DNA of 64,000 nucleotides from an uncultured bacterium (GCA_964651045.1 CAZYVD010000010.1:828-64827); one strand, 5' to 3'; shown: positions 12,812 to 51,338, counted from the first letter of the stretch. The notes: generated by a model from the letters alone, not told the origin. Program-made: numbers and translations.

Positions 12812-12827
12812 TGGCATGATTTATGCA
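12812..12827 (+). promoter_or_regulatory. Putative sigma54 (-24/-12) promoter
   Basis: TGGCATGATTTATGCA has GG-N10-GC spacing and shares GTGGCATGAT with the site at 15980. Confidence 0.55.
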
Positions 12828-12880: not shown

Positions 12881-13423
12881 ATGAAAAAGATCACCTGTAT
12901 AATAATCTTGTTATGCCTTGCATCAAATCTACTAAGTTCAGATTTGATTGTCACGAAAAACAATAAGAAATATCGCGGACACTTTCTCAGAAGAACGGAA
13001 AGAGGCCTTCTACTGAAAACAGACAGCGGTACACTAATAGTGCTGCCCATAGAACAGATTTCAAAAATATACAGAAGCGACAAATCTATATGGGACTTTG
13101 AAACTAGAACCAGATACTATCTGAAAAAGAACCATCCATTTCTTCCATTCATTTTTTTAGGACTAGCAACGGGTGCTTATGCTGTGCAAAAATATCAGGA
13201 TTATCAAAAACATAAACAGCAGGCAGAAAGCGAAGAGCAAATGGCCAATGCAGACTATCTTGCAGACCAGTCAAAGAGAGATCTTGCGTGGTGTATCGTA
13301 TCCAGTCTCTTCAGTGCTGGATCTATCTATGTTGCCTTCATTCCAATGGAGGTAAAGGTTCCAATTGGCAGAATCAATCTAAGTGCAACCAGTAATGGAA
13401 TCAATATTGCCCTCCACTTTTAA
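12881..13423 (+). CDS. Hypothetical exported/membrane protein
   Basis: ORF 12848-13423; likely start ATG 12881 (MKKITCIIILLCLASNLLS signal); two internal hydrophobic segments. Confidence 0.6.
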   Translation: MKKITCIIILLCLASNLLSSDLIVTKNNKKYRGHFLRRTERGLLLKTDSGTLIVLPIEQISKIYRSDKSIWDFETRTRYYLKKNHPFLPFIFLGLATGAYAVQKYQDYQKHKQQAESEEQMANADYLADQSKRDLAWCIVSSLFSAGSIYVAFIPMEVKVPIGRINLSATSNGINIALHF

Positions 13424-13518: not shown

Positions 13519-14211
13519 ATGCCATTGTTCTTCTTTGATCCAACAATAATTATACTGTTGCCAGCAATTCTTCTTGCGGTATGGGCCCAATATCAGATTA
13601 AAACAACATATTCAAAATACAGCAAGATACCGGCCTCTTCTGGAATCACTGGAGGCATGGCGGCAAGAAATCTATTGGATGAGAACGGGCTCCAGAACAT
13701 CCACATCGAAGAGGTTGAAGGAAGGCTGACCGACCACTACGATCCAAGATCTCGAGTGTTGAGGCTCTCATCCTCTATCTTTAGAAGCAGGTCACTGGCA
13801 GCCCTTGCAATTGCTGCTCACGAGGTTGGACACGCCATTCAGCACAAAATGGCATATTCACCATTTCAGATAAGGCAATCAATCTTTCCTGTTGCCAGTA
13901 TCGGATCATCGATGGCATTCCCCCTGTTTTTCATTGGATTTCTATTTTACCCGTCTGCAAAATGGCTCATGGACCTCGGTATCTATCTCTTTGGAGCAGC
14001 TGTTTTTTTCCAGATCGTTACACTGCCTGTAGAATTCAATGCAAGCTCCAGAGCATTAAAACTTCTCAGATCGAGAGGTTATCTTGTAGAAGAGGAATCA
14101 CATCATGCAAAAAAGATATTGCAGGCCGCTGCTCTTACATATGTGGCAGCAAGTGCTGTTGCAGTGTTCCATCTGATAAGACTTCTTCTGCTTAGAAGTG
14201 CAAGGGACTGA
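13519..14211 (+). CDS. Membrane zinc metallopeptidase (YugP/Zn_peptidase_2-like)
   Basis: LTDHYDP, AAHEVGHAIQ (HExxH), TLPVEFNASSRA, AAALTYVA. Confidence 0.93.
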   Translation: MPLFFFDPTIIILLPAILLAVWAQYQIKTTYSKYSKIPASSGITGGMAARNLLDENGLQNIHIEEVEGRLTDHYDPRSRVLRLSSSIFRSRSLAALAIAAHEVGHAIQHKMAYSPFQIRQSIFPVASIGSSMAFPLFFIGFLFYPSAKWLMDLGIYLFGAAVFFQIVTLPVEFNASSRALKLLRSRGYLVEEESHHAKKILQAAALTYVAASAVAVFHLIRLLLLRSARD

Positions 14212-14256
14212 TTCTTGGTAGATAGAAAAATTTATAAATTATTTGGAGGTGATAAC

Positions 14257-15789
14257 ATGTGGACATCAAGAAAAAAAAGACTAACTGCTGCCGGACTGAT
14301 ATTAATCGGAATAGTCATCGGAATTGTTTTAACAGTCAATTTCAACTGGATACCAAAGGGAATCGCTTCACGCAACACAACAACTGTTGATATCGGTTCA
14401 AAAGAAAATAGCCCCCAGGCTAGATTTGATCTTCAGAGTACGGCGAAGGCATTTACAGCAGTTGCAAAAAGAGTAGTGCCAACGGTTGTCAGGATCTCTC
14501 CCCAAAAAACAATAACACGCAGAGTCGTTCCGTTCGATGATTTATTCAGACAATTCTTCGATTTCAAATACAAGCCTCAGAAAAGGGAAGATGTCATAAA
14601 AGGTCTCGGATCAGGAGTGATAATAAGCAGCGATGGATACATCCTGACCAACAATCATGTAGTGGCAGACATGGATGAACTCGATGTAACTCTGCCGGAT
14701 AACCGCTCATTTAAGGCAAAACTAATTGGAACAGATCCTTTAACAGAGATTGCAGTAATTAAAATCGATGGTAAAAATCTGCCTACAGCAAAGCTAGGCA
14801 ACTCAGACGAACTGGAAGTCGGAGAATGGGTACTCGCTGTTGGAAGTCCTCTTGGAGAGTATCTGAGTTCTACGGTAACTGCAGGAATAGTAAGTGCTCT
14901 TGGAAGAAATATTAACATAATAAGGGATGTAGAGACAAGCCCAGAATATGGCTCATATGCAATCGAAAATTTTATTCAAACAGATGCTGCTATAAATCCT
15001 GGAAATAGTGGCGGGCCACTTGTAAATTTAAAGGGTGAGGTCGTCGGAATAAATACGGCAATTGCAACTGGTACAGGATTTTATGCAGGATACGGATTTG
15101 CAGTACCTATCAATCTGGCAAAGAAGATAGCTTCTGATCTTATAGAAAAGGGATATGTGGTCCGTGCCTTTCTTGGAATATCCATGACCAACGTTGACGA
15201 AAATAAGGCAAAAAGATTTGGCTTAGATAAACCGACTGGAGTGCTCATCGAAAAGGTTCAGCCGGGAAGTCCAGCAGAGAAAGCAGGACTTCAGCAGTTC
15301 GATATCATACTAGAGATAGACGGGAAAAAAGTCAATGCAAGTAATCAGGTTCAGAGTTATATAGCATTAAAAAATCCAGGCGACTTTGTTGAGATAACAA
15401 TTCTTCGAAACCGTTTAAAGAAAACAATCAAGATCAAACTTGGACAGCGTGAGACTGGAAAGGAAAAACCCAAAAAACAGGAACAGGCTGCTGACTTTCC
15501 TGATATTGGGATCGTTGTAAAAAATCTTGATGACCAATATCGTCAGCAGTACGGAATCGATGAAGGCGACGAGGGTGTGATAGTTGTTGATATAGAGCGA
15601 TACGGTCCTGCATGGAAGGGTGGAATTCGCAACATTGGAACTCTCATCACAAAAATTGAAAATTACAAGATTAGATCAACTTCAGACTATCGAAAAGCAT
15701 TGAGGAAATTTAAAAAGGGAAGTGTCGTGATTTTTTATCTAAGATTCAGAGGTATCGATTCTCATGCATTTGTCGAGATACCAGATTAA
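14257..15789 (+). CDS. degP: Do/DegP (HtrA) family serine endopeptidase with two PDZ domains
   Basis: GLGSGVII, TNNHVV, QTDAAINPGNSGGPL; two PDZ-like segments; SD GGAGG before ATG 14257. Confidence 0.92.
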   Translation: MWTSRKKRLTAAGLILIGIVIGIVLTVNFNWIPKGIASRNTTTVDIGSKENSPQARFDLQSTAKAFTAVAKRVVPTVVRISPQKTITRRVVPFDDLFRQFFDFKYKPQKREDVIKGLGSGVIISSDGYILTNNHVVADMDELDVTLPDNRSFKAKLIGTDPLTEIAVIKIDGKNLPTAKLGNSDELEVGEWVLAVGSPLGEYLSSTVTAGIVSALGRNINIIRDVETSPEYGSYAIENFIQTDAAINPGNSGGPLVNLKGEVVGINTAIATGTGFYAGYGFAVPINLAKKIASDLIEKGYVVRAFLGISMTNVDENKAKRFGLDKPTGVLIEKVQPGSPAEKAGLQQFDIILEIDGKKVNASNQVQSYIALKNPGDFVEITILRNRLKKTIKIKLGQRETGKEKPKKQEQAADFPDIGIVVKNLDDQYRQQYGIDEGDEGVIVVDIERYGPAWKGGIRNIGTLITKIENYKIRSTSDYRKALRKFKKGSVVIFYLRFRGIDSHAFVEIPD

Positions 15790-15814: not shown

Positions 15815-15845
15815 AAAGAGGAGGCCCTTCATGCCTCCTCTTTTT
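15815..15845 (+). terminator. Intrinsic terminator after degP
   Basis: AAAGAGGAGGC-ccttcat-GCCTCCTCTTT followed by further T residues. Confidence 0.8.
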
Positions 15846-15980
15846 ATGCCAATATGACAACAAATTAACATTAATGTGTCACAATTTCATTTATAATGTT
15901 ATTCTGACACAATTCACATATTCAGATTCTTCATCCCTATCTAGTTTAATATCAAGAAGATAAGTCGACTTTCTAAACCG

Positions 15981-15996
15981 TGGCATGATGGTTGCA
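15981..15996 (+). promoter_or_regulatory. Sigma54 (-24/-12) promoter upstream of the hsp20-grpE-dnaJ-dnaK-clpB genes
   Basis: TGGCATGATGGTTGCA is near the consensus TGGCACGNNNNTTGCW with exact GG-N10-GC spacing; it follows a terminator and lies 48 bp before the hsp20 start. Confidence 0.75.
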
Positions 15997-16044
15997 CTTC
16001 CTGAAGGCAAAATCACAAAATGATTATGAAAGGAGGTATTAACC

Positions 16045-16491
16045 ATGACACTGATTCGCTGGTCACCATGGCGGGACCTGGCCCGTATCCAGGAAGACAT
16101 GGATCGTCTCTATAATGCCTTCTTTTCCGGAACGCCAACAAAGCTGGACAGTGGTTCGATGGTCTGGAACCCTGCCGTAGACATTCATGAAAACGATAAT
16201 GAGTTTATTGTAGTTGCCGAAATCCCAGGCATGAAGAAAGAGGATGTAAAGATTTCACTTCAGGACAATGTGCTGACTATATCCGGTGAAAAAAAGAGAG
16301 AAAAAGAAGAGGAGAAAAAAACCTACCACCGCATTGAACGGGAATACGGCTCGTTTGAGAGATCTTTCAGTCTGCCATCTTCTGTAAAGGTTGACAGTGT
16401 GAAGGCAACATATAAGGATGGACTGCTGACAATTACTCTACCTAAATCTGAGGAGGCAAAACCAAAAGAGATTAGCATCTCTGTCAGCTGA
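16045..16491 (+). CDS. Hsp20/alpha-crystallin small heat shock protein
   Basis: PAVDIHE...AEIPGMKKEDV..SLQDNVLTISGE...RIEREYGSFERSFSLP...ATYKDGLLTITLPK. Confidence 0.96.
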   Translation: MTLIRWSPWRDLARIQEDMDRLYNAFFSGTPTKLDSGSMVWNPAVDIHENDNEFIVVAEIPGMKKEDVKISLQDNVLTISGEKKREKEEEKKTYHRIEREYGSFERSFSLPSSVKVDSVKATYKDGLLTITLPKSEEAKPKEISISVS

Positions 16492-16514
16492 GTGTAAAAA
16501 ATCGATATAGCAAA

Positions 16515-16548
16515 AAGAGTCTGGATGTTGTATCGCATCCAGACTCTT
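16515..16548 (+). repeat. Perfect 13-bp-stem hairpin between hsp20 and grpE
   Basis: AAGAGTCTGGATG-ttgtatcg-CATCCAGACTCTT; no clear U-tract. Confidence 0.7.
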
Positions 16549-16573
16549 AAAATTTAATTAAATTGGGTAGAAA

Positions 16574-17125
16574 ATGGAAAATAAGAAAATAAACATTGAA
16601 ATAGAGGATACAGAAAAAGAGATCGATTCAGAAGAGCAGAATAAAAACTCAAGTAGTGAAAAGTGCTCAAACGAAACCGTGCGGCAAAAAGACGATGATT
16701 ATCTCGAGCAACTTCAGAGGCTTCAGGCCGATTTTATAAATTATAAAAGAAGAACAGAAAAAGAGTGGGCAGAAATTAGTTCAACGGCTAAGGGAGAACT
16801 AATCTCAAACTTACTACCTGTTCTTGATGACTTTAAAAGAATGATCAATCACAACAACGAAAACAACTTTATAGAAATCGATGGGGTAAAATTGATATAT
16901 AAGAAATTCAATAAAATCCTTGCCGATGAAGGTCTGGAGGAAATTCCAGCCGTGGGATGTGAATTTGATCCTGAGATTCATGAAGTCGTTGTAACCGAAG
17001 AAACAGATCAGGATAAAGACAGTATTGTGCTGGAAGAGTGGCAGACCGGATATCGATTCAGGGGAAAATTGCTGCGTCCCAGCAAAGTAAAGGTCGGCAA
17101 GTACAGAGACAATCGAAATGAATAG
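16574..17125 (+). CDS. grpE: Nucleotide exchange factor GrpE
   Basis: LQRLQADFINYKRR, LLPVLDDF, FDPEIHEVV, GY...KLLRPSKVKV. Confidence 0.95.
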   Translation: MENKKINIEIEDTEKEIDSEEQNKNSSSEKCSNETVRQKDDDYLEQLQRLQADFINYKRRTEKEWAEISSTAKGELISNLLPVLDDFKRMINHNNENNFIEIDGVKLIYKKFNKILADEGLEEIPAVGCEFDPEIHEVVVTEETDQDKDSIVLEEWQTGYRFRGKLLRPSKVKVGKYRDNRNE

Positions 17126-17130
17126 ATAAG

Positions 17131-18177
17131 ATGGGAGTCAAAGATTATTATAAAATACTTGGAGTATCAGAAAATGCCAGTCAGGATGAAATAAAACAGG
17201 CATTCAGGCGACTGGCAAAAATGTATCACCCCGATGCCAATCCAGGGAATAAAGAAGCAGAGGAAAAATTTAAAGACATCCAGGAAGCTCACGAAATCCT
17301 CAGCAATCCACAGAAGAGAGAAAAGTATGACCAGATGCGAAAATTCGGCACCGGGGCAAACTTTGATTTCAATAATTTCAACTTCGGAGGATTCCACAGA
17401 AAAGGCTGTCAAGGCGGAGGCGGATTCTCATTCGAAGGCTTCGATATTTTCAGTGATCTGGGAGATGTTTTCTCTCAAATCTTTGATATAGGTCAGAGAA
17501 CACGCAAGTCAAGACGTGGCCCCACTAAGGGTGATGATATTAGAGTCAATCTAACGATACCCTTTGAACTGGCCATCAACGGCGGGAAAACATCCTTCAG
17601 TGTAGAAAAAGAAAAGGTCTGTCCTGTCTGCAGTGGTGGCGGTGCCAAGCCCGGATCCAGAGTGGAGACGTGCCCTGAATGTAATGGACGAGGAACAGTA
17701 GTAATCGGATATGGAGGATTCGGAGTTAGCCGTCCATGCCCCAGATGCTATGGAAGGGGACACATTATTCACAACCCATGCGATAGATGTCATGGAAGAG
17801 GAGTCGCAAAGGGAAAAAGGACCTATTCGGTAAAGATACCAAAAGGTATAGATGAAATGGAAGAAATCAGGCTGAGGGGTGAAGGAGAACCAGGTATTGG
17901 TGGGGCACCTCCCGGCGACATGATCGTAAGAATTCATGTGCAGCCGCATCACTTCTTCAAACGTGAGGGTAACGATATTACATGTGAGATATATCTTGAT
18001 AAAGATCAGGCTGCAAGGGGTGCCACCGTTAAAGTAAAAACAGTACACGGCAGCAAGATTAAGCTTAAGATTCCCCCTGGTACACATGACGGATCAACAT
18101 TTAGATTGAGTGGAATGGGTATAAAACGAAATGGTCGAGAAGGAGATCAGTATATAACAGTCAGGGTTAAGGAATAA
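17131..18177 (+). CDS. dnaJ: Chaperone DnaJ
   Basis: J-domain with HPD, G/F-rich region, four CxxCxGxG repeats, PGDM..RI...H.FF.REGND. Confidence 0.95.
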   Translation: MGVKDYYKILGVSENASQDEIKQAFRRLAKMYHPDANPGNKEAEEKFKDIQEAHEILSNPQKREKYDQMRKFGTGANFDFNNFNFGGFHRKGCQGGGGFSFEGFDIFSDLGDVFSQIFDIGQRTRKSRRGPTKGDDIRVNLTIPFELAINGGKTSFSVEKEKVCPVCSGGGAKPGSRVETCPECNGRGTVVIGYGGFGVSRPCPRCYGRGHIIHNPCDRCHGRGVAKGKRTYSVKIPKGIDEMEEIRLRGEGEPGIGGAPPGDMIVRIHVQPHHFFKREGNDITCEIYLDKDQAARGATVKVKTVHGSKIKLKIPPGTHDGSTFRLSGMGIKRNGREGDQYITVRVKE

Positions 18178-18204
18178 TAGACAATCTAAAGAGAGGGAAA
18201 TATT

Positions 18205-18498
18205 ATGCCTACATACGAATATCGCTGTGATAAATGCAATCATGAGTTTGAGGTTTTTCAATTGATAACAGAAGAACCTTTGAGTAGATGTCCAAAGTGC
18301 AGGGGAAAAGTTACACGACTGATAAGCGCCGGAGCAGGGCTTATATTCAAGGGCTCTGGGTTTTACATCACCGATTACAAAAAGAAGGGAACAGGAGAAT
18401 CTGCTTCTGACTTAACCGCATCTTCTGATGCAAAGAGTAAAGAAAGGGATAAAAAGAGTGAAAATACAAAACCAAAAGATAAATCATCTGAAAAATAA
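18205..18498 (+). CDS. FmdB-family zinc ribbon protein
   Basis: MPTYEYRCDKC...CPKC...FKGSGFYITDY. Confidence 0.9.
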   Translation: MPTYEYRCDKCNHEFEVFQLITEEPLSRCPKCRGKVTRLISAGAGLIFKGSGFYITDYKKKGTGESASDLTASSDAKSKERDKKSENTKPKDKSSEK

Positions 18499-18543
18499 GA
18501 ATAACGATCTTTAATAAAATATTTTAAAAGGAGGTTTTCAACA

Positions 18544-20454
18544 ATGGGAAAAATAATTGGAATCGACTTGGGAACTACAAATTCATGTGTAGCTGTAATG
18601 GAGGGTGGTGAGCCGGTAGTAATTCCTAACGCTGAAGGCTCTCGAACAACTCCCTCCATGGTAGCATTCACTAAAAAAGGAGAAAGACTGGTCGGGGCAT
18701 CGGCAAAGCGTCAGGCAATTACAAATCCTGACAATACCATCTTCTCAATAAAGCGTTTCATGGGACGAATGTATGAAGAGGTTGAGGAGGAAATAAAAGA
18801 GGTTCCATATAAAGTAGTAAAAGGGAAGAACAATGTTGCCCGAGTAAAGATTGGTGATAAGGAATACTCCCCTCCTGAAATATCTGCAATGATACTGCAG
18901 AAAATGAAACAAACTGCCGAAGACTATCTCGGCCAGAAGGTCACAGAGGCGGTTATTACTGTACCTGCTTACTTCAACGACAGCCAGAGACAGGCCACAA
19001 AAGAAGCTGGAATAATTGCAGGTCTTGAGGTCAAACGGATAATCAATGAACCAACAGCAGCATCCCTAGCATATGGACTGGATAAAAAGAAAAACGAAAA
19101 GATCGCAGTGTTTGATCTCGGAGGTGGCACATTTGATATATCGATTCTTGAATTAGGTGACGGTGTTTTTGAAGTCAAATCCACAAATGGAGATACACAC
19201 CTCGGCGGCGACGATTTCGATCAGCGCATAATCAACTGGCTTGTAGATGAATTTAAGAAGGCAGAAGGTGTTGATCTCTCCAAAGATCCAATGGCTCTTC
19301 AGAGACTCAAAGAAGCAGCCGAAAAGGCAAAGATGGAGCTTTCAACATCTACACAGACAGAGATAAATCTTCCTTTCATAACAGCAACAGACTCTGGTCC
19401 AAAACATCTTAACATGACTCTCACCCGCGCAAAATTCGAGCAGCTGTGCGATGACCTCTTCACCAAAACAATAGAACCGTGTCAGATTGCATTAAATGAT
19501 GCAGGCCTGAAACCAACCGATATCGACGAAGTTGTGCTTGTAGGAGGCATGACCCGTGTTCCAAGAGTTCAGGAAATTGTAAAAGAGATCTTTGGTAAAG
19601 ATCCACACAAGGGTGTTAATCCAGACGAAGTTGTTGCCATTGGCGCTGCCATTCAAGGTGGAGTCCTTGGAGGGGATGTAAAGGATGTTCTTCTTCTCGA
19701 TGTTACACCTCTTTCTCTTGGAATCGAGACGCTCGGTGGAGTCTTTACAAAACTCATAGAGAAGAACACAACCATCCCAACCAGGAAGAGTGAGATCTTC
19801 TCTACCGCTGCAGACAACCAGACAACTGTCGAAATCCATGTATTGCAGGGTGAAAGAGAAATGGCCATTGATAACAAAACAATAGGTCGTTTCCATTTGG
19901 ACGGGATTCCACCTGCACCAAGAGGCGTGCCGCAGATCGAAGTCACCTTTGACATCGATGCCAACGGCATACTAAATGTCTCGGCAAAAGATAAGGCGAC
20001 AAACAAGGAACAGTCAATAAGAATCGAAGCTTCAAGCGGTCTTACCAAGGAAGAAATCGATAAGATGATAAAGGATGCCAAACAACACGCTGCTGAAGAT
20101 AAAAAACGAAGAGAAGAGGTCGATGCAAGAAATGCCGCAGACCAACTCGTATATCAAACAGAGAAGAATCTTAAAGAGTCGGGTGACAAAATCGATAGTG
20201 ACTTAAAGAATAAAATAGAGGCAGCAGTAGGACGAGTGAAAGAGGCAATGAAGGGTTCAAACATAGATGAGATAAAATCCGCAACTGATAATCTCAATCA
20301 ACTGTGGCAACAGGCCGTATCATATATGTATACACATGCAGCCGGAGCCCAGACCGGAACAGGCCAATCACAGACATCACAGACCGAAGAGAAAAAGGAA
20401 AAGAAGGCACAGGACGCAGACTTCGAGGTCGTTGACGATGATGAAGGAAAATGA
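18544..20454 (+). CDS. dnaK: Chaperone DnaK (Hsp70)
   Basis: [47 protein letters not shown]. Confidence 0.99.
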
Positions 20455-20461
20455 TAAAAAA

Positions 20462-20577
20462 GGGGCTGTATCAAGAGTATTAAAAAAGGGCAAAGATATA
20501 TCAAGATGGAAACACTTAAAAACCAACCTCTGCGCTCTTTAAGGTTCCAATAAGTTTCCGATTCTTGATACAACCCC
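20462..20577. repeat. 116-bp element with 15-bp terminal inverted repeats (MITE-like or long hairpin)
   Basis: GGGGCTGTATCAAGA (20462-20476) versus TCTTGATACAACCCC (20563-20577): 14/15 complementary. Confidence 0.55.
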
Positions 20578-20619
20578 CTATTTATATTATGGAATTATTT
20601 AAAAACTCGGAGGTCTTAA

Positions 20620-23235
20620 TTGATTGACATAAACAGGTTCACATTAAAATCTCAGGACGCAATACAAAAATCACACACTCTTGCCAGTGAATATGGAAAT
20701 CAACAGATAGAGCCCGAACACCTCCTCTACACCCTTCTGCAGGATAGAGAAGGACTTGTTTGTTCCATCCTAAAAAAACTTGGCACATCCGTCGAAGAAG
20801 CGGAAAGCAAAGTTCTAAACCAGATCGAGCGGTTCCCAAAAGTAACAGGAGGTGTGGGACAGGTATATCTTTCTCAAGAATTAAATCAGGTTCTCGAGAG
20901 AGGCCTCAAAAAAGCCGAGGCCCTCAAGGATGACTATATAAGCGTCGAGCATCTACTTCTTGCCATATCGGAATCCAGGAGCAAGGCAGGGGAAATTCTC
21001 AGAGAGGGAGGTGTTTCTGAGGAAAACATTCTAAACGTGCTTCGCTCTATTCGCGGCGGACACAGAGTAACAGATCAGAATCCAGAAGATAAATATCAGG
21101 CTCTGAAGCGGTATGCTCGCGATCTTAATGAACTTGCCAGGCAGGGCAAACTAGATCCTGTAATTGGAAGAGATGAAGAGATACGAAGAGTGTTGCAGGT
21201 TCTGTCGCGCAGGACGAAAAATAATCCTGTTCTCATTGGTGAGCCTGGTGTCGGAAAAACCGCCATTGTCGAGGGTATAGCTCATCGTATCATATCAGGA
21301 GATGTTCCGGAGAACCTTAAAACAAAACGCATCATTGCTCTTGATATTGGATCATTGATAGCAGGAGCAAAATACAGGGGTGAGTTTGAAGACAGACTCA
21401 AGGCCGTTCTAAAGGAGATCCACGAATCAGAAGGCCAGATAATTTTATTTATAGATGAGATGCATACACTTGTTGGAGCAGGAGCAGCAGAAGGCGCCGT
21501 GGATGCATCCAACATGCTTAAGCCTGCACTAGCACGTGGAGATTTGAGATGTGTTGGTGCTACAACACTAAACGAATATCGAAAACACATCGAGAAGGAT
21601 GCTGCTCTTGAGCGCAGGTTCCAGCCGGTATACGTCGGAGAGCCTTCTGTTGAAGATACGATATCCATTCTAAGAGGACTGAAAGAGAGATATGAAGTAC
21701 ATCATGGTGTCAGGATAAAGGATAGTGCACTTGTAGAGGCAGCAGTCCTTTCACACCGATACATCAGCGATCGTTTCCTCCCAGACAAGGCCATAGACCT
21801 GATCGATGAAGCTGCATCCAAACTTCGCATCGAAATCGATTCAATGCCAGAAGAGCTGGACGAAGTAGAGCGAAAAATAAAACAGCTTGAGATTGAACGA
21901 GAGGCCATGAAAAAGGAAAAAGATCCAGGCTCAAAAGAACGGCTCAGGAAAATTAAAGAGGAACTCTCGAATCTAAAAGAAAAAGCAGACGAGCTCAGGG
22001 CTCACTGGCAGATGGAAAAGGAGACAATCTCGCGCATTAGAAAATTAAAAGAAGAGATAGAAAATGTTAAGACAGAATCTGCAAAGGCAGAAAGAGACGG
22101 CGATCTTTCAAAGGCAGCAGAGTTAAAGTACGGGAAACTTCCGGAACTCGAGAAAGAGCTCAACGAGGTCAATGCAAAACTCGTAGAACTTCAGAAGGAT
22201 CGAAAGATGCTTAAAGAGGAAGTTGAAGAAGAAGATGTTGCAGAAATCGTCTCAAGATGGACAGGGATCCCTGTGTCGAGAATGATGGAAAGCGAGCGAG
22301 AAAAACTAATACACATGGAAGAACGCATCAGACAGAGAATCGTGGGCCAAGATGAGGCGGTTCGGGCTGTTGCAGATGCGATTCGAAGGGCAAGAGCAGG
22401 TCTTCAAGAAGAGGCTCGCCCCATTGGTTCATTCATCTTTCTTGGAACAACAGGTGTCGGTAAAACCGAACTTGCAAGGGCTCTAGCAGAATTTCTATTT
22501 GATGATGAACATGCAATGATAAGAATCGATATGTCAGAGTATATGGAACGACACTCTGTTTCTCGCCTCATTGGTGCACCTCCTGGTTATGTAGGATATG
22601 AGGAGGGGGGCCAGCTCACAGAAGCGGTAAGAAGACGGCCATACTCGGTAGTACTCTTAGATGAAATCGAAAAGGCCCATCCTGAAGTATTCAACATTCT
22701 ACTACAGATACTGGATGACGGTCAGCTTACAGACAATCAGGGAAGAAAAGTCAATTTTAAGAATACTATTATTATTATGACATCCAATATCGGTGCACCC
22801 TTCATAATGGAACGGTCTCAAAATATAACAGATGAAAATAGAGAACGCATATATCAGGAAATTAAAAACGAAGTAAACAGCCAGCTTAAAAAAACCTTAA
22901 GACCCGAACTCCTAAACAGAATCGACGAGATCATCGTATTTCATCCATTAGGAATGAAAGAGATAGAACAAATAGTATCTCTTCAGTTTAAAAAGATAGC
23001 GGAAAAGGCAAAGAAACAGGGGGTTAATATCGAACTTACCGAGGAGGCCAGGGCCTATCTAGCGAAAACAGGATATGATCCTGCCTTTGGTGCACGGCCT
23101 CTCAAACGTTCCCTTCAGAAGATGATTACAAATGAACTTGCAAAAAGAATATTGAGCGGCCAGATAAAAACTGGAGATAATATCAAAATCATATTCAAAG
23201 AAAATAGCCTTGATTTTATTCCTAAGACTAATTAA
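20620..23235 (+). CDS. clpB: ATP-dependent disaggregase ClpB
   Basis: Two AAA+ modules ([16 protein letters not shown]), coiled-coil middle domain, [17 protein letters not shown]. Confidence 0.97.
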
Positions 23236-23282: not shown

Positions 23283-23780
23283 ATGAGGAGCCTAATAACA
23301 GTATCATTTGCAGTGACAGTCATTATCATATCAATTACAGGATGCTTAAAACTCTCAGATGAACAGCTCATGAACAGGGCTGAAAAATTAGAGTCAGAGG
23401 AGAAATTCTCAAAGGCGGCCGAAATTTATGAAAAAGTTGCCTCCCTTCATCCTGAGAGTCCATTAGCAGATTCTGCCCTATACAGAGCGGCCATTGTCTA
23501 CACCGGCGGCCTAAAAAAATTCTCAAAGGCAATCTCTCTATTCAAACGAATCGTCGATGAATATCCTGAAAGTAGATCAGCTCCTCAATCTCAATTCATG
23601 ATAGGATACATTTATGCCAACACAATCGGCGACACAACCATGGCACGCAGGGCATATAAGAGATTTCTCGAAAAGTATCCCGATCATGAACTTGTTCCAT
23701 CAGTAAGATGGGAGTTGAAATATCTTGGGAGAGACATAAATGATATCCCGGAGCTGAAAAATTTAGAAGGTAAAAATTAA
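23283..23780 (+). CDS. TPR lipoprotein (YbgF/BamD-like repeats)
   Basis: Lipobox ITGC; YP.S..A..ALYR and APQSQFMIGYIY repeats. Confidence 0.8.
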   Translation: MRSLITVSFAVTVIIISITGCLKLSDEQLMNRAEKLESEEKFSKAAEIYEKVASLHPESPLADSALYRAAIVYTGGLKKFSKAISLFKRIVDEYPESRSAPQSQFMIGYIYANTIGDTTMARRAYKRFLEKYPDHELVPSVRWELKYLGRDINDIPELKNLEGKN

Positions 23781-23835
23781 TCTTTCTGGTCAGTGGAACT
23801 TTTATTAAACTGAAAAGTATGAAAAAATATAAAAT

Positions 23836-24870
23836 ATGGGGAGGTATATGAAACATAGTATAGTCAAACCCATCCTTTTAACAATACTTTTCTCAGCCAT
23901 ACTTTCAGGACAAACATATTCTATTCCAGACTCATCAGAAAATATAAGAGTAACTCTATCTGCAGAAATATCTCACAAATCTGTACCATTAAACCGTACA
24001 TTCTCACTATCAGTAAAGGTGTTGTGGGAAGGAGACCAGAACAGAATTGAAATCGTTAAGATCGAGGAGCCAATATTATCAAACTGCGAAATAACAGGAA
24101 CCTCTGTATCAAACAGAGTGACAGGAACATCGGGTAGTCAAAAGGCAGAAAGGGAGATTAGCTATAAACTTAAGCCACACTCCCTGGGAATGGCCTATAT
24201 AGAAGAGGTTCTTCTTACATACAAGGACAGAAAAACAGACAAAACCTACACACTCAAAACAGAGAGACTTTCTGTCGAAGTTGTTGATCCAGTCCCTGAA
24301 AATGTGCATAAGAGTAATCTGTGGATACTATTTCTATTCTTGGGGGTTCTGATAACTATCGTCATCATATCTCTATTTATAATTAAAAAAAGATCAGAAG
24401 GGAAGATCGCTCCCCAGCCTCAGAGAATCATAGAAGAAATTTATCTGGAGGAACTAAAAAAGAGCGTTGATCTTAAGGCAAAGAAAACAGATGAGGCCTT
24501 TGGTGTATTATCAAGACTCTTCAGAAGATATCTTTCCGAAAAATTTGGAATATCGGCAACACAGCTTACAACTCAGCAGCTGTTAAAAAAACTGGAAGAA
24601 ACTGATCTGGATGAGAACACAAGAAGGAAATGCGAAAAACTCTTTACAACTGCAGATGTTGTTAAATTCTCAGGCCATGATGCAACACAATCAGAATTAG
24701 AAGATGGCTACACAACGGTCGAAACCATTCTTGAATCGAATCTGTCAAAGATGATTGAGGAAAGGCAGAGAGCAGAACAGCAAATATCAAAAGGGAAAAA
24801 GATATTGAAGATATTTAAAAAAAGCGCTCATCAAGAACTTGAAAGGAGGTTCAATGGACACCAAGATTGA
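23836..24870 (+). CDS. BatD-like N-terminal domain membrane protein
   Basis: Signal, Ig-like region (VPLNRTFSLSV...YKLKP...G), one TM segment, RRYLSEKFG.SA..LTT..L...ADVVKFS; resembles 27730-28782. Confidence 0.55.
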   Translation: MGRYMKHSIVKPILLTILFSAILSGQTYSIPDSSENIRVTLSAEISHKSVPLNRTFSLSVKVLWEGDQNRIEIVKIEEPILSNCEITGTSVSNRVTGTSGSQKAEREISYKLKPHSLGMAYIEEVLLTYKDRKTDKTYTLKTERLSVEVVDPVPENVHKSNLWILFLFLGVLITIVIISLFIIKKRSEGKIAPQPQRIIEEIYLEELKKSVDLKAKKTDEAFGVLSRLFRRYLSEKFGISATQLTTQQLLKKLEETDLDENTRRKCEKLFTTADVVKFSGHDATQSELEDGYTTVETILESNLSKMIEERQRAEQQISKGKKILKIFKKSAHQELERRFNGHQD

Positions 24871-25843
24871 GGCCATCCACAAAAAAATACAGAAAGAGAG
24901 TATATTTATCGACAGGCTAATCGATGAAATTGGTAAGGTAATAGTCGGTCAAAAGTACATGATCGAAAGGCTACTTATAGGGCTTCTTTCCAACGGACAC
25001 GTGCTGCTCGAGGGTGTTCCAGGTCTGGCAAAAACAATGACTGTCAGGACACTCTCAGATGCAATTCAGACAAAATTTCAGCGCATCCAGTTCACTCCTG
25101 ATCTCCTTCCAGCAGATCTTATAGGAACGCTGATATATGATCAAAAGAACGGAAAGTTCCAGACCAAAAAAGGCCCAATTTTCTCGAACATAATTCTTGC
25201 CGACGAAATAAACCGATCACCTGCTAAGGTACAGTCGGCACTGCTTGAGGCAATGCAGGAACGAACAGTTACGATAGGAGACAATACATTTGCCCTTGAG
25301 GATCCATTTCTCGTTCTCGCCACTCAGAACCCGATAGAACAGGAAGGAACCTATCCCCTACCCGAAGCCCAGGTCGACCGCTTCATGCTTAAACTCTCAA
25401 TCGATTATCCGACACCAGAAGAGGAACTCGAGATCATGCGCCGCATGTCAGTAGGCCCTGAACCAAAGGCAGACCCTGTAATCGGGCCAAAGGAGATAAT
25501 TAATGCCAGATCGGTTGTTGAAGAAATTTACATAGATCCAAAGATTCAGCAATACATTGTTGACATCGTATTTGCAACACGAAAACCAAAAGAGTATGGA
25601 CTCGAAGACCTCGTGGAACTAATCGCATATGGCGCATCTCCAAGAGCATCGATCTATCTGTCAAAGGCAGCCAAGGCCCATGCATTCTTGAGAAAGAGGG
25701 GCTATGTGACACCAGAAGATGTAAGGGCAATCGGGATGGACATCCTGCGACACAGGATTATAGTAACATATGAGGCCGAAGCAGAAGAGGTTACATCAGA
25801 GGATGTTGTAAGAAAAGTACTCAACAGAATTGAGGTTCCATAA
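24854..25843 (+). CDS. moxR: MoxR family AAA+ ATPase
   Basis: HVLLEGVPGLAKT, RIQFTPDLLPAD, LADEINR, ATQNPIEQEGTYPLPEAQVDRF, YGASPRA. Confidence 0.96.
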   Translation: MDTKIEAIHKKIQKESIFIDRLIDEIGKVIVGQKYMIERLLIGLLSNGHVLLEGVPGLAKTMTVRTLSDAIQTKFQRIQFTPDLLPADLIGTLIYDQKNGKFQTKKGPIFSNIILADEINRSPAKVQSALLEAMQERTVTIGDNTFALEDPFLVLATQNPIEQEGTYPLPEAQVDRFMLKLSIDYPTPEEELEIMRRMSVGPEPKADPVIGPKEIINARSVVEEIYIDPKIQQYIVDIVFATRKPKEYGLEDLVELIAYGASPRASIYLSKAAKAHAFLRKRGYVTPEDVRAIGMDILRHRIIVTYEAEAEEVTSEDVVRKVLNRIEVP

Positions 25844-25862
25844 CAGAACAACAGGAATAACG

Positions 25863-26741
25863 ATGATTCCAAAAGAGGTTCTTAAAAAGGTCAAACGTCT
25901 CGAAATCACAACAAGGAGTCTTGTAAACGACGTCTTCTCAGGTGAGTACCACTCTGTATTTAAAGGAAGGGGAATGGAATTTTCTGAGGTAAGGGAGTAT
26001 CAAATTGGAGACGACATCCGCACAATAGACTGGAACGTTACAGCAAGATATGGACATCCCTATGTTAAGGTCTTTGATGAAGAGCGTGAGCTAACAGTGA
26101 TGCTACTCGTTGATGCCAGCTCATCTGGAGAATTCGGAACATTCGAGAGGATGAAGGGAGAAATAGGAGTCGAAATCTGTGCCCTACTTGCATTCTCTGC
26201 CATAAAAAACAATGATAAGGTAGGATTGATAATATTTACAGACAAGGTCGAAAAGTTTATCCCACCAAGAAAAGGAAGGACCCATGTTCTAAGGGTGCTG
26301 CGGGAGCTTCTCTATTTTCAGCCTGAGAAGAAAAAAACAGACATAGGTGAAGCACTCGAGTATTTCAACAGAGTAATTAAGAGAAGAAGCGTTGTGTTTC
26401 TTGTTTCAGATTTCATATCTGAAGATTACGAGAATGCACTCAGGATTGCAAATAAGAAGCACGATATAGTTGCTATAAACATAGTCGATCCAAGAGAAAT
26501 AGAGCTGCCCGCTATCGGATATGTGGAACTCGAGGATGCCGAGACAGGCGAGACAATACTGATAAACACATCAGACAGGCAAATACGAAAGGAATTCAAT
26601 GTAAGAACATCAGAAGCATTGATAAACAGAGAGAAACTATTCAAATCGATGAACGTCGACTCTATAATAATTCATACTGATGAATCCTATTTTGAACCTC
26701 TAATGAAATTTTTCAGAACCAGGGCAAAGAGGTTTAGATAA
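25863..26741 (+). CDS. DUF58 (VWA-like) protein
   Basis: SVFKGRGMEFSEVREYQIGDDIRTIDWNVTAR, VDASSS, FLVSDF. Confidence 0.95.
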   Translation: MIPKEVLKKVKRLEITTRSLVNDVFSGEYHSVFKGRGMEFSEVREYQIGDDIRTIDWNVTARYGHPYVKVFDEERELTVMLLVDASSSGEFGTFERMKGEIGVEICALLAFSAIKNNDKVGLIIFTDKVEKFIPPRKGRTHVLRVLRELLYFQPEKKKTDIGEALEYFNRVIKRRSVVFLVSDFISEDYENALRIANKKHDIVAINIVDPREIELPAIGYVELEDAETGETILINTSDRQIRKEFNVRTSEALINREKLFKSMNVDSIIIHTDESYFEPLMKFFRTRAKRFR

Positions 26742-26773
26742 TCGCAGTCATGAAAAAATTTAGAGGGTGGAAC

Positions 26774-27712
26774 ATGAAAAACCTGAACATTTCAATTCTC
26801 TGTACGATTCTATCATTGCTGCTAATATTTTCTCTCTGTTCGAATCCTCAAAAATCACAAGTGGATGCGGACAGAATCAGAAGCTATGCGAATGCCCTCT
26901 ATAACAGAGAACTTCATACTCAGGCAATAAGAGAGTATCAGCGTTATCTGGATCAATTTCCCGTCAGCAAAAAACAGAGAGCAAACATCAACTTCATTAT
27001 CGGCAACATCTATTTTGACAGACTCCATGATTATGAAAACGCCATGTCCTATTATCTCAAAGTAAAATATCTATTTCCAGAATCAGAATTAATCGAAAGT
27101 GTCAACAAGAAAATAGTCGAGTGTCTAGAGAGACTACAGCGAACCGCAGATGCCAAACAGGCTATGGATGAAACAATCCGTCTCGACTCGCATGCAGAGA
27201 AGGGTTCACGTCCTGGAGAAGTTATTGCAAGGATAGGTGAACGCAAAATAACATCTGGAGATCTGAAATACTACATAAGTCGACTGCCAGAATACCTTCA
27301 ATCCCAATTCAAAGACAGAAAATCAAAGATTGAATTTTTAAAAAACTACATCGCAACAGAGCTTTTCTACGACGCTGCAAAGCGAAAGGGTTTGGACAGA
27401 GATAAGGATGTTATAGAGGGAACATTCCAGGCAAAAAAACAGCTTATGGTTCAGAAATATCTTGAACAGGAGATATCTCCTGAGCTTAAGATTACTCCTG
27501 ATGAAGTAGAACTCTACTACAAGGCAAACATGGAAAAATATGTTGAAAAGGATGAAAAGGGTAAAATAAAGAGACAAAAACCGTTCAGTGAAGTAAGAGA
27601 AGATGTTGTTAGAGACCTGATGAAAGAAAAACAGAAGAATGCGCTCGAAAGACTGCTTGAGAGAATGATGAATGCAGAGAATGTAAAGATCTATGAGGAC
27701 CTGATAAAATAA
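26774..27712 (+). CDS. TPR plus PrsA/SurA-like foldase scaffold protein
   Basis: N-terminal TPR-like repeats; VIARIGERKIT..DL...ELFYDAAKRKGLD...ITPDEVELYY...KPFSEVR resembles the PrsA/SurA N/C domain. Confidence 0.6.
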   Translation: MKNLNISILCTILSLLLIFSLCSNPQKSQVDADRIRSYANALYNRELHTQAIREYQRYLDQFPVSKKQRANINFIIGNIYFDRLHDYENAMSYYLKVKYLFPESELIESVNKKIVECLERLQRTADAKQAMDETIRLDSHAEKGSRPGEVIARIGERKITSGDLKYYISRLPEYLQSQFKDRKSKIEFLKNYIATELFYDAAKRKGLDRDKDVIEGTFQAKKQLMVQKYLEQEISPELKITPDEVELYYKANMEKYVEKDEKGKIKRQKPFSEVREDVVRDLMKEKQKNALERLLERMMNAENVKIYEDLIK

Positions 27713-27729
27713 CCGGTAAGTTTTTGATT

Positions 27730-28782
27730 ATGAAGCCTAAATCGATTAAAATCATTTATCTGGTTGCGGTCATCCTGATGATCGTGGCCACAGCTTATGC
27801 AAATAAGTCGCCAATAACGATCACATCAAACGTTGATAAATCTCGAATAACAATCGGAGATCTTATAACCTACTCTATAATAGTAGAGCACGATAAAGAT
27901 GTAAGAGTCGAGATGCCTGGGATGGGCGCAAATCTGGGACAATTCGAGATCAGAGACTACAGGGTACATGAACCAAAGAAACAAAAGGAGAGAATAATAT
28001 CTAGATGGGATTATATCATCTCAACATTTTTTACTGGTGAGTTCGAAATTCCGCCATTGACCGTAAAGTATACTCTGCCACAAGATACTACTTCATACTA
28101 TCTTCAGACAGAAAAGATAAAAATTGTGGTAGAGAGCGTCAAGCCAAGCAAAGAGGGTGATATTCGCGACATAAAACCACCGGTCAATATTCCTGCAGAT
28201 CTGTGGTCAACACTGCGGTGGATAATATTAACAGTCCTGCTGATCAGTACTGGAATTGTGCTGTTTATTATTTACAGAAGAAAAAAGAGCGGTAAGGTGC
28301 CTCTTGCACAGCGGTTTACTCCTCCCAGGCCGCCCCATGAGACTGCTCTAGAGGAGCTGAATAATCTGAAAAATTCAAATCTACTGCAAGATGGGGAGAT
28401 AAAAAAGTACTACATTCGAATATCGGAAATAATCAGAAGATACATTGAAGGCAGATACTTCATAACGGCAATGGAAATGACAACTACAGAGGTACTTCTA
28501 CGCCTCTCCAGAGAGGATGTAAATAGTGAAGAGTTACGGCTTTTTGAACAGTTCCTGAACAGGTGCGACCTTGTTAAATTTGCCAAATTAAAACCATCGG
28601 ATGAAGAGAATGAAGAGGTTTTAAATCTTGCATACGAGATTATCAACAGAACAAAAGTAGTACTGGAAACTCAGCAGAACGAGGCAAATAAAGAACGGGC
28701 AGAAGCAGTTACAAGCGAGGAGGAAAAGGTTACAACATTGGAGCCAGAAGTTAGGAATGAAAATACAGAACAAATAAAATAA
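27730..28782 (+). CDS. Bat-cluster membrane protein (BatD-like N-terminus)
   Basis: VDKSRITIGD.ITYSI...GEFEIPPL...DIRDIKPP, one TM segment, PHETALEEL...IRRYIEGRY...DLVKFAK. Confidence 0.7.
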   Translation: MKPKSIKIIYLVAVILMIVATAYANKSPITITSNVDKSRITIGDLITYSIIVEHDKDVRVEMPGMGANLGQFEIRDYRVHEPKKQKERIISRWDYIISTFFTGEFEIPPLTVKYTLPQDTTSYYLQTEKIKIVVESVKPSKEGDIRDIKPPVNIPADLWSTLRWIILTVLLISTGIVLFIIYRRKKSGKVPLAQRFTPPRPPHETALEELNNLKNSNLLQDGEIKKYYIRISEIIRRYIEGRYFITAMEMTTTEVLLRLSREDVNSEELRLFEQFLNRCDLVKFAKLKPSDEENEEVLNLAYEIINRTKVVLETQQNEANKERAEAVTSEEEKVTTLEPEVRNENTEQIK

Positions 28783-28793
28783 GAGCCAGGCCG

Positions 28794-29783: not shown

Positions 29784-29800
29784 GAGGACAGTAGAGAAGA

Positions 29801-30832: not shown

Positions 30833-30834
30833 AG

Positions 30835-31542: not shown

Positions 31543-31553
31543 TAGAGAATAAG

Positions 31554-51158: not shown

Positions 51159-51338
51159 GGTAATATCTCCCCATATGTGGTAAATTTTTCCTTATATAAA
51201 TAGATCATAAAATTCCATAAGTATCTAATAAATAATAATCTTACATGCAAACACAAGAACCGTTTTAAAATAGACTGCAAATTAGATACCACATGGGAAA
51301 TTATTACAGAAGTTTAAAATCTGGATATTTAACCTTAC

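What the first reader, a model, noticed from the sequence alone, without database searches (positions are those of the whole stretch)
15850..23235. Core chaperone operon (hsp20-grpE-dnaJ-fmdB-dnaK-clpB) apparently under sigma54 control, without CIRCE
Seen: after the degP terminator the clearest promoter-like element is TGGCATGATGGTTGCA. There is no TTAGCACTC-N9-GAGTGCTAA site and no hrcA here. About 70-105 bp upstream lie repeated TG(T/A)CACAATT boxes (15877-15886, 15905-15914), which also form a GTGTCA...TGACAC inverted pair. Established: dnaK operons are normally controlled by sigma32, HrcA, HspR or CtsR; sigma54 heat-shock control is known for individual genes (E. coli ibpB, Myxococcus lonD via HsfA), and sigma54 requires an enhancer-binding activator. 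Inference: an activator-dependent heat-shock circuit, with these boxes as enhancer sites.
Basis: partly seen in the sequence, partly recalled or inferred. Interest (0 to 1): 0.65.

Follow-up and report, generated by a model that had tools for sequence, protein, structure and literature searches.

The report
Sigma-54 promoter driving a chaperone operon
An uncultured hydrothermal-vent bacterium (related to candidate division KSB1) appears to switch on its main protein-repair genes from a sigma-54 promoter with a conserved upstream enhancer, a design already seen in Flavobacterium; the added value here is a sharply defined candidate enhancer sequence.

Summary
TGGCATGATGGTTGCA (15981-15996, +) is the only exact TGGCAY-N5-TTGCW match in 64 kb. 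It lies 49 nt upstream of hsp20, after the degP terminator. No CIRCE, sigma-32, CtsR or HAIR element is present.

Comparative data make chance untenable. In about 20 related genomes, spanning 34-59% GC and including KSB1-labelled ones, the same -24/-12 motif sits upstream of hsp20 or grpE. In one subclade a second copy sits upstream of dnaK.

A 13-bp palindrome, TGYCA-N3-TGRCA, lies 70-140 nt upstream of these promoters and almost nowhere else. There were 13 sites in 2.6 kb of upstream sequence, against 0 in 175 kb of the same loci.

In the window the full copy is at 15847-15859.

A second conserved sigma-54 promoter (12812-12827) precedes the unknown-gene/Zn-peptidase/degP cluster.

Not shown: the transcription start, rpoN, the activator, heat induction, and read-through of the hairpin after hsp20.

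The kind is already known. Flavobacterium psychrophilum has mapped sigma-54 promoters on groESL, dnaK, grpE-dnaJ, clpB, lon and htpG (PMC9723704), and a 2025 survey predicts this across Bacteroidota (PMC12316311). This is a new member of that kind, with a newly defined candidate enhancer.

The parts
15815..15848 (+). Intrinsic terminator of the upstream degP unit (11-bp perfect stem AAAGAGGAGGC/GCCTCCTCTTT followed by a T run). It separates degP transcription from the hsp20 promoter.
15847..15859 (.). Candidate enhancer copy 1: TGCCAATATGACA. This is the only strict TGYCA-N3-TGRCA palindrome in the 64-kb window. Its centre is about 154 nt upstream of the predicted start.
15877..15889 (.). Degenerate candidate enhancer copy 2: TGTCAcaaTTTCA (left half-site perfect).
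   Evidence: sequence. It scores below the matrix threshold. Support comes from a recurrent 29-32 / 18 bp spacing of sites in L004 and L006.
15897..15909 (.). Degenerate candidate enhancer copy 3: TGTTAttcTGACA (right half-site perfect).
15981..15996 (+). Sigma-54 type -24/-12 promoter TGGCATGATGGTTGCA (P2). The start is predicted near 16007.
   Evidence: conservation
16030..16036 (+). Shine-Dalgarno sequence AAGGAGG of hsp20. The predicted 5' UTR of about 38 nt shows no significant structure, so there is no sign of an RNA thermometer.
16045..16491 (+). hsp20 (small heat-shock protein, 148 aa)
16515..16548 (+). Strong hairpin after hsp20 (-22.9 kcal/mol, z = -5.0) with no U tract on the + strand. 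It is a likely attenuator or stabiliser. A hairpin at this position occurs in all hsp20-bearing relatives, several with U tracts.
16574..17125 (+). grpE
17131..18177 (+). dnaJ
18205..18498 (+). FmdB-family zinc-ribbon protein, conserved between dnaJ and dnaK throughout the lineage
18544..20454 (+). dnaK
20620..23235 (+). clpB. It follows a 165-nt spacer with no -24/-12 motif, so co-transcription with dnaK is inferred and not shown.
12812..12827 (+). Second conserved sigma-54 type promoter (P1), TGGCATGATTTATGCA. It precedes an unknown lipoprotein-like gene (12881-13423), a Zn peptidase (13519-14211) and degP (14215-15789).

Best explanation
The site at 15981-15996 is a genuine sigma-54 (RpoN) promoter for the hsp20-grpE-dnaJ-fmdB-dnaK(-clpB) cluster.

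Proposed mechanism:
1. RNA polymerase with sigma-54 binds the -24 GG and -12 GC and stays in a closed complex.
2. An enhancer-binding AAA+ activator, encoded elsewhere in the genome, binds the palindromic sites TGYCA-N3-TGRCA. These are a full copy at 15847-15859 and two degenerate copies at 15877-15889 and 15897-15909, centred about 100-155 nt upstream of the start.
3. The activator reaches the polymerase by looping across an AT-rich spacer and uses ATP hydrolysis to open the promoter.
4. Transcription starts near 16007.
5. A hairpin after hsp20 lets only part of the transcripts continue into grpE-dnaJ-fmdB-dnaK and probably clpB. This would give more small heat-shock protein than DnaK-system mRNA.

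A second sigma-54 promoter (12812-12827) drives the adjacent envelope-protease cluster. Together, 12.8-23.2 kb forms a sigma-54 controlled protein-quality-control region.

Shown: the motifs, their positions, and their conservation with the genes. Inferred: sigma-54 dependence, the enhancer role of the palindrome, read-through of the hairpin, and induction by heat or protein-folding stress. The last is by analogy with the Flavobacterium sigma-54 regulon.
For: - The motif is unique in the window and correctly placed, 49 nt before the hsp20 ATG and after the degP terminator.
- Among GrpE-anchored loci, the exact motif is on the coding strand upstream of hsp20 (L001, L002, L086, L092, L166, L173). 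It is upstream of grpE where hsp20 is absent (L003, L004, L006, L093, L005, L007, L008, L089, L171, L172). It occurs again upstream of dnaK in the subclade with degP inside the operon (L005, L007, L008, L010, L089).
- KSB1-labelled L165 has CGGCAC-N5-TTGCA at both positions.
- Outgroups with grpE-dnaK-dnaJ order lack the motif.
- Only 4 stray matches occur in ~1.5 Mb of other sequence.
- Conservation holds from 34% to 59% GC.
- The palindrome gives 13 strict sites in the -200..-40 regions of 16 promoters (12 of 16 have at least one). It gives 0 in the other 175 kb of the same loci and 5 in 1.35 Mb of unrelated loci. Across all 173 loci, every lineage hit lies upstream of a -24/-12 motif (L171 and L172 sequences).
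- No sigma-70-like site of at least 9/12 on the + strand lies between degP and hsp20.
- No CIRCE, sigma-32, CtsR or HAIR element was found.
- Only about 25 nt separate the hsp20 hairpin from the grpE start, leaving no room for a separate promoter there.
- Precedent: mapped sigma-54 promoters on grpE-dnaJ, dnaK, clpB, groESL, lon and htpG in F. psychrophilum (PMC9723704).
Against: - There is no transcript data, since no RNA run holds this sequence. The start site and sigma-54 dependence are therefore unproven.
- No rpoN and no GAFTGA-bearing activator were found in the window, in 10-kb contig extensions, or in any lineage locus.
- The only sigma-54-interaction-domain gene in the window (39528-40454, -) lacks GAFTGA and the Walker B glutamate.
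- Hairpins after hsp20 carry U tracts in several relatives. hsp20 may therefore be largely monocistronic.
- No -24/-12 motif precedes clpB.
One scores 8.2 and the other falls below threshold, against 14-24 for strict sites.
- P1 has no palindrome upstream.
Confidence: 0.8

Rival explanations
1. The sigma-54 promoter serves essentially only hsp20. The hairpin at 16515-16548 terminates most transcripts. grpE-dnaJ-fmdB-dnaK and clpB are expressed mainly from other promoters, for example housekeeping-sigma promoters inside hsp20 or in the dnaK-clpB spacer.
For: A strong hairpin follows hsp20 in the window and in every hsp20-bearing relative. Clear U tracts follow it in L001, L086/L085 and L166. 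A 165-nt spacer precedes clpB without a -24/-12 motif. In F. psychrophilum the chaperone genes have separate promoters.
Against: In relatives lacking hsp20, the same promoter and palindrome sit directly in front of grpE. The grpE operon is therefore the ancestral target. In the window the hairpin has no U tract on the + strand and ends about 25 nt before the grpE ATG. No sigma-70-like site was flagged there on the + strand.
Confidence: 0.25
2. The TGYCA-N3-TGRCA palindrome is not the binding site of a canonical activator. It is instead an operator for a different regulator. One candidate is the lineage-specific 308-aa GAFTGA-less AAA+/HTH_8 protein (window 39528-40454, -), acting as a repressor, an anti-activator, or a sigma-54-independent regulator.
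For: That protein family is confined to the same lineage and has an almost invariant helix-turn-helix. This fits a lineage-wide invariant DNA target. It lies on the same contig as the chaperone operon in at least 7 genomes, judged by matching contig lengths. It sits next to a Lon-like protease in a KSB1 genome.
Against: The palindromes lie 70-140 nt upstream of the -24 element, the classic enhancer position, and do not overlap the promoter. No palindrome or -24/-12 motif occurs near the regulator gene itself. The linkage may only reflect conserved long-range gene order, since the chaperone-TPR-MoxR-Bat cluster is syntenic throughout. There is no binding data.
Confidence: 0.15
3. The -24/-12 match is a chance occurrence in AT-rich intergenic DNA, and the operon is read from an unrecognised housekeeping promoter.
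For: A single match in 64 kb is not significant alone, since 16 of 100 shuffles give at least one. A perfect TATAAT hexamer lies at 15892-15897.
Against: The motif recurs at the orthologous position in about 20 genomes of very different base composition, together with a co-occurring palindrome. The TATAAT has no acceptable -35 partner, so it is not listed. It lies about 150 nt from the ATG, inside the repeat region.
Confidence: 0.02

Closest known systems
Sigma-54 (motif SM4) proteostasis regulon of Flavobacterium psychrophilum (Bacteroidota), PMC9723704
   Same: Both have -24/-12 promoters in front of grpE-dnaJ, dnaK, clpB and other quality-control genes in an FCB-group bacterium. The cognate activator is unassigned in both.
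   Different: - There, each gene or gene pair has its own promoter with an experimentally mapped start. Here, one promoter fronts a long hsp20-grpE-dnaJ-fmdB-dnaK(-clpB) cluster, or two promoters do in a sister clade, and nothing is mapped.
- The organism here is a KSB1-like lineage that uses Shine-Dalgarno sites.
- A specific enhancer palindrome is defined here. Whether Flavobacterium shares it was not testable.
In-silico survey of sigma-54 regulons (PMC12316311, 2025)
   Same: It predicts enrichment of GroEL/ES, IbpA, GrpE, DnaJ, DnaK, ClpB and Lon genes behind sigma-54 promoters in Bacteroidota and Planctomycetota.
   Different: KSB1, Calditrichota and allied candidate phyla are not mentioned. 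No enhancer motif is given for the chaperone genes.
Myxococcus xanthus HsfA/HsfB control of lonD, and the E. coli ibpB sigma-54 promoter
   Same: Heat-responsive genes are transcribed from sigma-54 promoters that need an enhancer-binding activator.
   Different: Those are single genes added to a sigma-32 or other main circuit. Here the core DnaK system itself carries the promoter.
E. coli PspF/pspA phage-shock system (from my own knowledge)
   Same: It is a stress-responsive sigma-54 promoter with upstream palindromic activator sites. Its activator has only AAA+ and HTH domains, the same architecture as the 308-aa protein in the window.
   Different: PspF has GAFTGA and an intact Walker B. The window protein has neither. 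No pspA-like partner was seen.
HrcA-CIRCE, sigma-32, HspR-HAIR and CtsR heat-shock circuits
   Same: They control the same target genes (dnaK operon, clpB, small heat-shock protein).
   Different: None of their DNA elements is present, and no hrcA precedes grpE.

Membership tests
Sigma-54 (RpoN)-dependent promoter | GG and GC doublets exactly 10 nt apart within a TGGCAC-N5-TTGCW-like sequence | tested here: met
   TGGCATGATGGTTGCA at 15981-15996
Sigma-54 (RpoN)-dependent promoter | Correct strand and distance to a downstream gene, and not inside a coding region | tested here: met
   It lies in the degP-hsp20 intergenic region, 49 nt before the hsp20 ATG and downstream of the degP terminator.
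Sigma-54 (RpoN)-dependent promoter | Conservation of the element at orthologous positions in relatives | tested here: met
   About 20 lineage genomes carry it upstream of hsp20, grpE or dnaK, against 4 stray hits in ~1.5 Mb.
Sigma-54 (RpoN)-dependent promoter | Upstream activator (enhancer) sites roughly 80-150 nt upstream | tested here: met
   The TGYCA-N3-TGRCA palindrome lies 70-140 nt upstream of the -24 element in most promoters. There are 13 sites in 2.6 kb against 0 in 175 kb.
Sigma-54 (RpoN)-dependent promoter | Transcription start about 12 nt downstream of the GC, and loss of expression without rpoN | not testable with these tools
   No RNA runs hold the sequence, and the organism is uncultured.
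Sigma-54 (RpoN)-dependent promoter | The genome encodes RpoN and at least one GAFTGA-bearing enhancer-binding protein | tested here: inconclusive
   None is present in the 64-kb window, the contig extensions or the lineage loci. The only PF00158 protein lacks GAFTGA. The rest of the genome is not available.
FCB-type sigma-54 proteostasis regulon (as in F. psychrophilum) | Sigma-54 promoters in front of several different chaperone and protease units | tested here: met
   Window: P2 before hsp20-grpE-dnaJ-fmdB-dnaK, and P1 before the unknown-gene/Zn-peptidase/degP cluster. Relatives: separate promoters before dnaK and before hsp20-Zn-peptidase. groESL, lon and htpG are not in the window.
FCB-type sigma-54 proteostasis regulon (as in F. 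psychrophilum) | Induction under stress conditions | not testable with these tools
   No expression data.
HrcA-CIRCE regulon | TTAGCACTC-N9-GAGTGCTAA inverted repeat at the promoter, with hrcA usually upstream of grpE | tested here: not met
   No match with up to 3 mismatches in 64 kb. degP and hsp20, not hrcA, precede grpE.
Sigma-32 heat-shock promoter | TTGAAA-N12-16-CCCCAT | tested here: not met
   No match in the window.
CtsR and HspR operators | GGTCAAA-NAN-GGTCAAA direct repeat, or CTTGAGT-N7-ACTCAAG inverted repeat, near the promoter | tested here: not met
   Only chance-level 3-mismatch hits occur, far from the operon.
Canonical bacterial enhancer-binding protein (for window ORF 39528-40454, -) | GAFTGA loop, Walker A GxxGxGK and Walker B hhhhDE in the AAA+ domain | tested here: not met
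   GAFTGA is replaced by GPKGFE, Walker A reads GTGRK, and Walker B reads LFLEN. The loss is conserved across the 308-aa family.

The most novel reading that the evidence does not exclude
In KSB1-like FCB bacteria the whole cytoplasmic and envelope protein-quality-control set would be governed by sigma-54 together with one dedicated, still unidentified enhancer-binding 'heat-shock activator'. That activator would recognise TGYCA-N3-TGRCA and replace sigma-32 and HrcA as master regulator. The lineage-specific GAFTGA-less, hydrolysis-dead AAA+/HTH protein (39528-40454) might act on the same sites as a modulator. If the same palindrome is found at the Flavobacterium and Bacteroides sigma-54 chaperone promoters, it would identify the missing heat-shock regulator of the whole FCB group.
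Probability: 0.35. Interest if true: 0.65.

Novelty: new member of a known kind. Interest (0 to 1): 0.42.

Why it matters
How Bacteroidota and their candidate-phylum relatives sense and respond to protein-folding stress is poorly understood. Sigma-54 promoters on chaperone genes have been mapped in one flavobacterium and predicted more widely, but no activator or enhancer has been assigned in the papers I could search.

This window and its relatives extend the pattern to an uncultured KSB1-like lineage. They also give a very specific 13-bp palindrome that marks these promoters. That palindrome is a concrete handle for finding the cognate activator by DNA-affinity or DAP-seq methods. It also allows the regulon to be defined in complete genomes.

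Tried and rejected
- Transcript start mapping: only DNA metagenome runs hold the locus, and no RNA runs were found.
- Rfam scan of the window: no hit, so no known thermometer or leader. The predicted 5' UTR is unstructured.
- CIRCE, sigma-32, CtsR and HAIR searches were negative.
- A strict IHF consensus between enhancer and promoter was found in none of 20 promoters. The spacer is merely AT-rich.
- GAFTGA and RpoN-box regex over six frames of the window and all loci: only two hits, both in unrelated outgroup loci.
- Extending the contig 10 kb beyond both window ends found no rpoN or activator.
- The window's PF00158 protein was considered as the activator. It was rejected as a canonical one, because it lacks GAFTGA and its Walker B is degenerate. 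Its neighbourhoods and flanks show neither palindrome nor -24/-12 motif.
- A -24/-12 motif upstream of clpB or between hsp20 and grpE: none was found.
- The dnaK-clpB spacer fold is not significant (z = -1.85).
- A B. thetaiotaomicron transcriptome paper was checked for sigma-54 chaperone promoters and mentions none.
- The scripting machine was lost, so later counts come from pattern searches only.
I therefore could not test the palindrome in Bacteroidota genomes or scan the complete relatives' genomes.

Full report
**What is in the window.** The region holds these genes (NCBIfam; gene calls on identical metagenome contigs):
- degP, 14215-15789
- hsp20, 16045-16491
- grpE, 16574-17125
- dnaJ, 17131-18177
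- an FmdB-type zinc-ribbon gene, 18205-18498
- dnaK, 18544-20454
- clpB, 20620-23235

degP ends in a perfect 11-bp hairpin with a T run at 15815-15848. The sequence TGGCATGATGGTTGCA sits at 15981-15996 (+). It is the only exact match to TGGCAY-N5-TTGCW in 64 kb. Chance expectation is 0.2, and 16 of 100 shuffles give at least one match.

They belong to a 21-nt direct repeat and a 17-nt inverted repeat.

No competing heat-shock element is present:
- CIRCE is absent even with three mismatches.
- Sigma-32, CtsR and HAIR consensus searches are negative or at chance level.
- No sigma-70-like site of at least 9/12 lies on the + strand between degP and hsp20.

By itself, however, the single motif is only suggestive.

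**Source organism.** Identical copies of the locus come from hydrothermal-vent metagenomes. The best named matches of DnaK (79-82% identity) are candidate division KSB1, 'Candidatus Oleimicrobiaceae' and Calditrichaeota. The flanking genes point to the FCB group: DUF4292, FlgD_ig/CARDB surface proteins, and a MoxR-DUF58-BatA-D cluster. The exact phylum was not determined.

**Comparative test of the promoter.** I anchored on GrpE. I took 30 homologues, 80 loci from species-representative genomes and 80 from metagenomes. I then added targeted look-ups of KSB1-labelled and other long contigs.

A lineage defined by the gene order grpE-dnaJ-(degP)-fmdB-dnaK-clpB-TPR emerges. In every member with enough upstream sequence, the -24/-12 motif lies on the coding strand just upstream of one of the following:
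- hsp20: L001, L002, L086, L092, L166, L173.
- grpE, where hsp20 is absent: L003, L004, L006, L093, L171, L172.
- grpE and again dnaK, in a subclade with degP inside the operon: L005, L007, L008, L089 and L165. In L010 the grpE upstream region is cut off, so only the dnaK site is seen.

L165 uses CGGCAC-N5-TTGCA. L087 has TGGCAC-N5-TTGTA.

Outgroups with the usual grpE-dnaK-dnaJ order have no such motif. Only four exact matches occur elsewhere in ~1.5 Mb of fetched sequence. The lineage spans 34-59% GC, so base composition cannot explain the conservation.

**The enhancer.** The regions upstream of these promoters share a 13-bp palindrome, TGYCA-N3-TGRCA, with extended consensus cTGTCAaatTGACAg.
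- In the -200..-40 regions of 16 non-redundant promoters there are 13 strict sites, and 12 of the 16 promoters have at least one.
- The other 175 kb of the same loci have none.
- 1.35 Mb of unrelated loci have five.
- A later search over all 173 loci gave the same picture and added L087, L165, L166, L171 and L173.
- L172 has two one-mismatch copies.

Sites start 70-140 nt upstream of the TGGCA. This puts their centres roughly 100-165 nt upstream of the predicted start, which is the classic position of activator sites.

In the window the only strict copy is TGCCAATATGACA at 15847-15859. L171, which has the same upstream synteny as the window, carries TGCCGATATGACG followed by TGTCAATGTGGCA.

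These are TGTCAcaaTTTCA at 15877-89 and TGTTAttcTGACA at 15897-909. The second scores 8.2 on the site matrix, against 14-24 for strict sites. The first falls below threshold.

The centre-to-centre spacings in the window are 32 and 18 bp. These resemble those in L004 (29, 18) and L006 (18). This is modest support that the weak copies are real.

**Extent of the transcription unit.** A -22.9 kcal/mol hairpin (z = -5.0) follows hsp20 at 16515-16548. On the + strand it has no U tract, and it ends about 25 nt before the grpE ATG.

All hsp20-bearing relatives have a different but equally strong hairpin at this position. Several have U tracts. No second -24/-12 motif lies between hsp20 and grpE.

In hsp20-less relatives the promoter fronts grpE directly. 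The simplest reading is therefore an ancestral sigma-54 grpE operon into which hsp20, with a leaky terminator or attenuator, was inserted. This remains an inference.

clpB follows a 165-nt spacer without a -24/-12 motif. Its inclusion in the unit is the least certain part.

**A second promoter.** TGGCATGATTTATGCA at 12812-12827 lies between an OmpA-like gene and three genes in a row. These are a lipoprotein-like unknown (12881-13423), a Zn_peptidase_2 gene (13519-14211) and degP.

The core TGGCAYGnTTTnTGCAAAA is the only conserved block in the orthologous intergenic regions of L001 and L086. It recurs in L171 at 4559-4574. In L166 and L173 a sigma-54 promoter with a palindrome fronts hsp20-Zn_peptidase. 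P1 has no palindrome nearby, so its activator site is unknown.

**Activator.** No rpoN and no GAFTGA protein is encoded in the window, in the 10-kb contig extensions, or in any lineage locus.

The window does encode one PF00158 + HTH_8 protein (39528-40454, -, 308 aa from the likely ATG). It has no N-terminal sensor domain, like PspF. Aligned to ZraR, its GAFTGA is GPKGFE, its Walker A is GTGRK and its Walker B is LFLEN.

It belongs to a lineage-restricted family of about 308-aa proteins. In this family the loss of GAFTGA and of the Walker B glutamate is conserved, while the helix-turn-helix is nearly invariant.

The family lies on the same contigs as the chaperone operon in several genomes, judged by matching contig lengths. 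It sits near the end of the Bat cluster in L174 and L177, and next to a Lon-like protease in a KSB1 genome. Neither the palindrome nor a -24/-12 motif occurs beside it.

It cannot be a canonical sigma-54 activator. Whether it binds the palindrome is an open lead.

**Comparison with what is known.** A transcription-start map of Flavobacterium psychrophilum assigned a -24/-12 motif (SM4) to groES-groEL, lon, dnaK, grpE-dnaJ, htpG, skp and clpB. That study noted three candidate activators but made no assignment (PMC9723704).

A 2025 matrix-based survey found GroEL/ES, IbpA, GrpE, DnaJ, DnaK, ClpB and Lon genes enriched behind predicted sigma-54 promoters in Bacteroidota and Planctomycetota (PMC12316311). 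It does not mention KSB1 or Calditrichota.

I found no paper in the searchable library that assigns an enhancer sequence or activator to these promoters.

**Verdict.** This is a real and well-conserved sigma-54 promoter with a well-defined candidate enhancer in front of the core chaperone genes of a KSB1-like lineage. It is a new member of a known kind. It matters mainly because the palindrome gives a direct route to the unknown activator. Nothing about expression, sigma-54 dependence or stress induction has been shown experimentally.

Noticed in passing
window 12812-12827 (+), with genes 12881-13423, 13519-14211 and 14215-15789: A second sigma-54 type promoter, TGGCATGATTTATGCA, precedes a lipoprotein-like unknown, a Zn_peptidase_2 gene and degP. 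The core TGGCAYGnTTTnTGCAAAA is conserved in L001, L086 and L171, but no palindromic enhancer lies nearby.
   Followed up: partly
window 39528-40454 (-): A 308-aa AAA+ (PF00158) + HTH_8 protein with PspF-like architecture. It belongs to a lineage-specific family that has conservatively lost GAFTGA and the Walker B glutamate but keeps an almost invariant helix-turn-helix. It shares a contig with the chaperone operon in several genomes and sits next to a Lon-like protease in KSB1 locus L176.
   Followed up: partly
window 51276-51291 (-) and 51426-51441 (-): Two TGGTAT-N5-TTGCA sites lie 150 nt apart in the 555-nt intergenic region upstream of a lipoprotein-like ORF (50637-51158, -). That ORF is followed by an unknown ORF and a PGA_cap gene. 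They may be further sigma-54 promoters.
   Followed up: no
window 18205-18498 (+) and all lineage loci: An FmdB-family zinc-ribbon gene is invariably placed between dnaJ (or degP) and dnaK in this lineage. Its role in the chaperone operon is unknown.
   Followed up: no
window 16515-16548; L001, L002, L085/L086, L092 and L166 intergenic hsp20-grpE: A strong hairpin follows hsp20 in every relative, although the sequences are unrelated. This suggests selection for attenuation or for stabilising the hsp20 message.
   Followed up: partly
window 20455-20619: The dnaK-clpB spacer carries a long-range inverted repeat (about 20462-76 / 20562-77), but the fold is not significant (z = -1.85). L001 and L002 have a second hsp20 gene at this position.
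   Followed up: partly
L005, L007, L008, L010, L089, L165, L166, L173: A sister clade has degP inserted between dnaJ and fmdB. It also has a second sigma-54 promoter with its own palindrome directly upstream of dnaK.
   Followed up: yes
window 23283-34177; L166, L172, L173, L174: The chaperone operon is followed throughout the lineage by a conserved BamD-like TPR gene and a MoxR-DUF58-BatA-D cluster. This gives long-range synteny that can mimic functional linkage.
   Followed up: no
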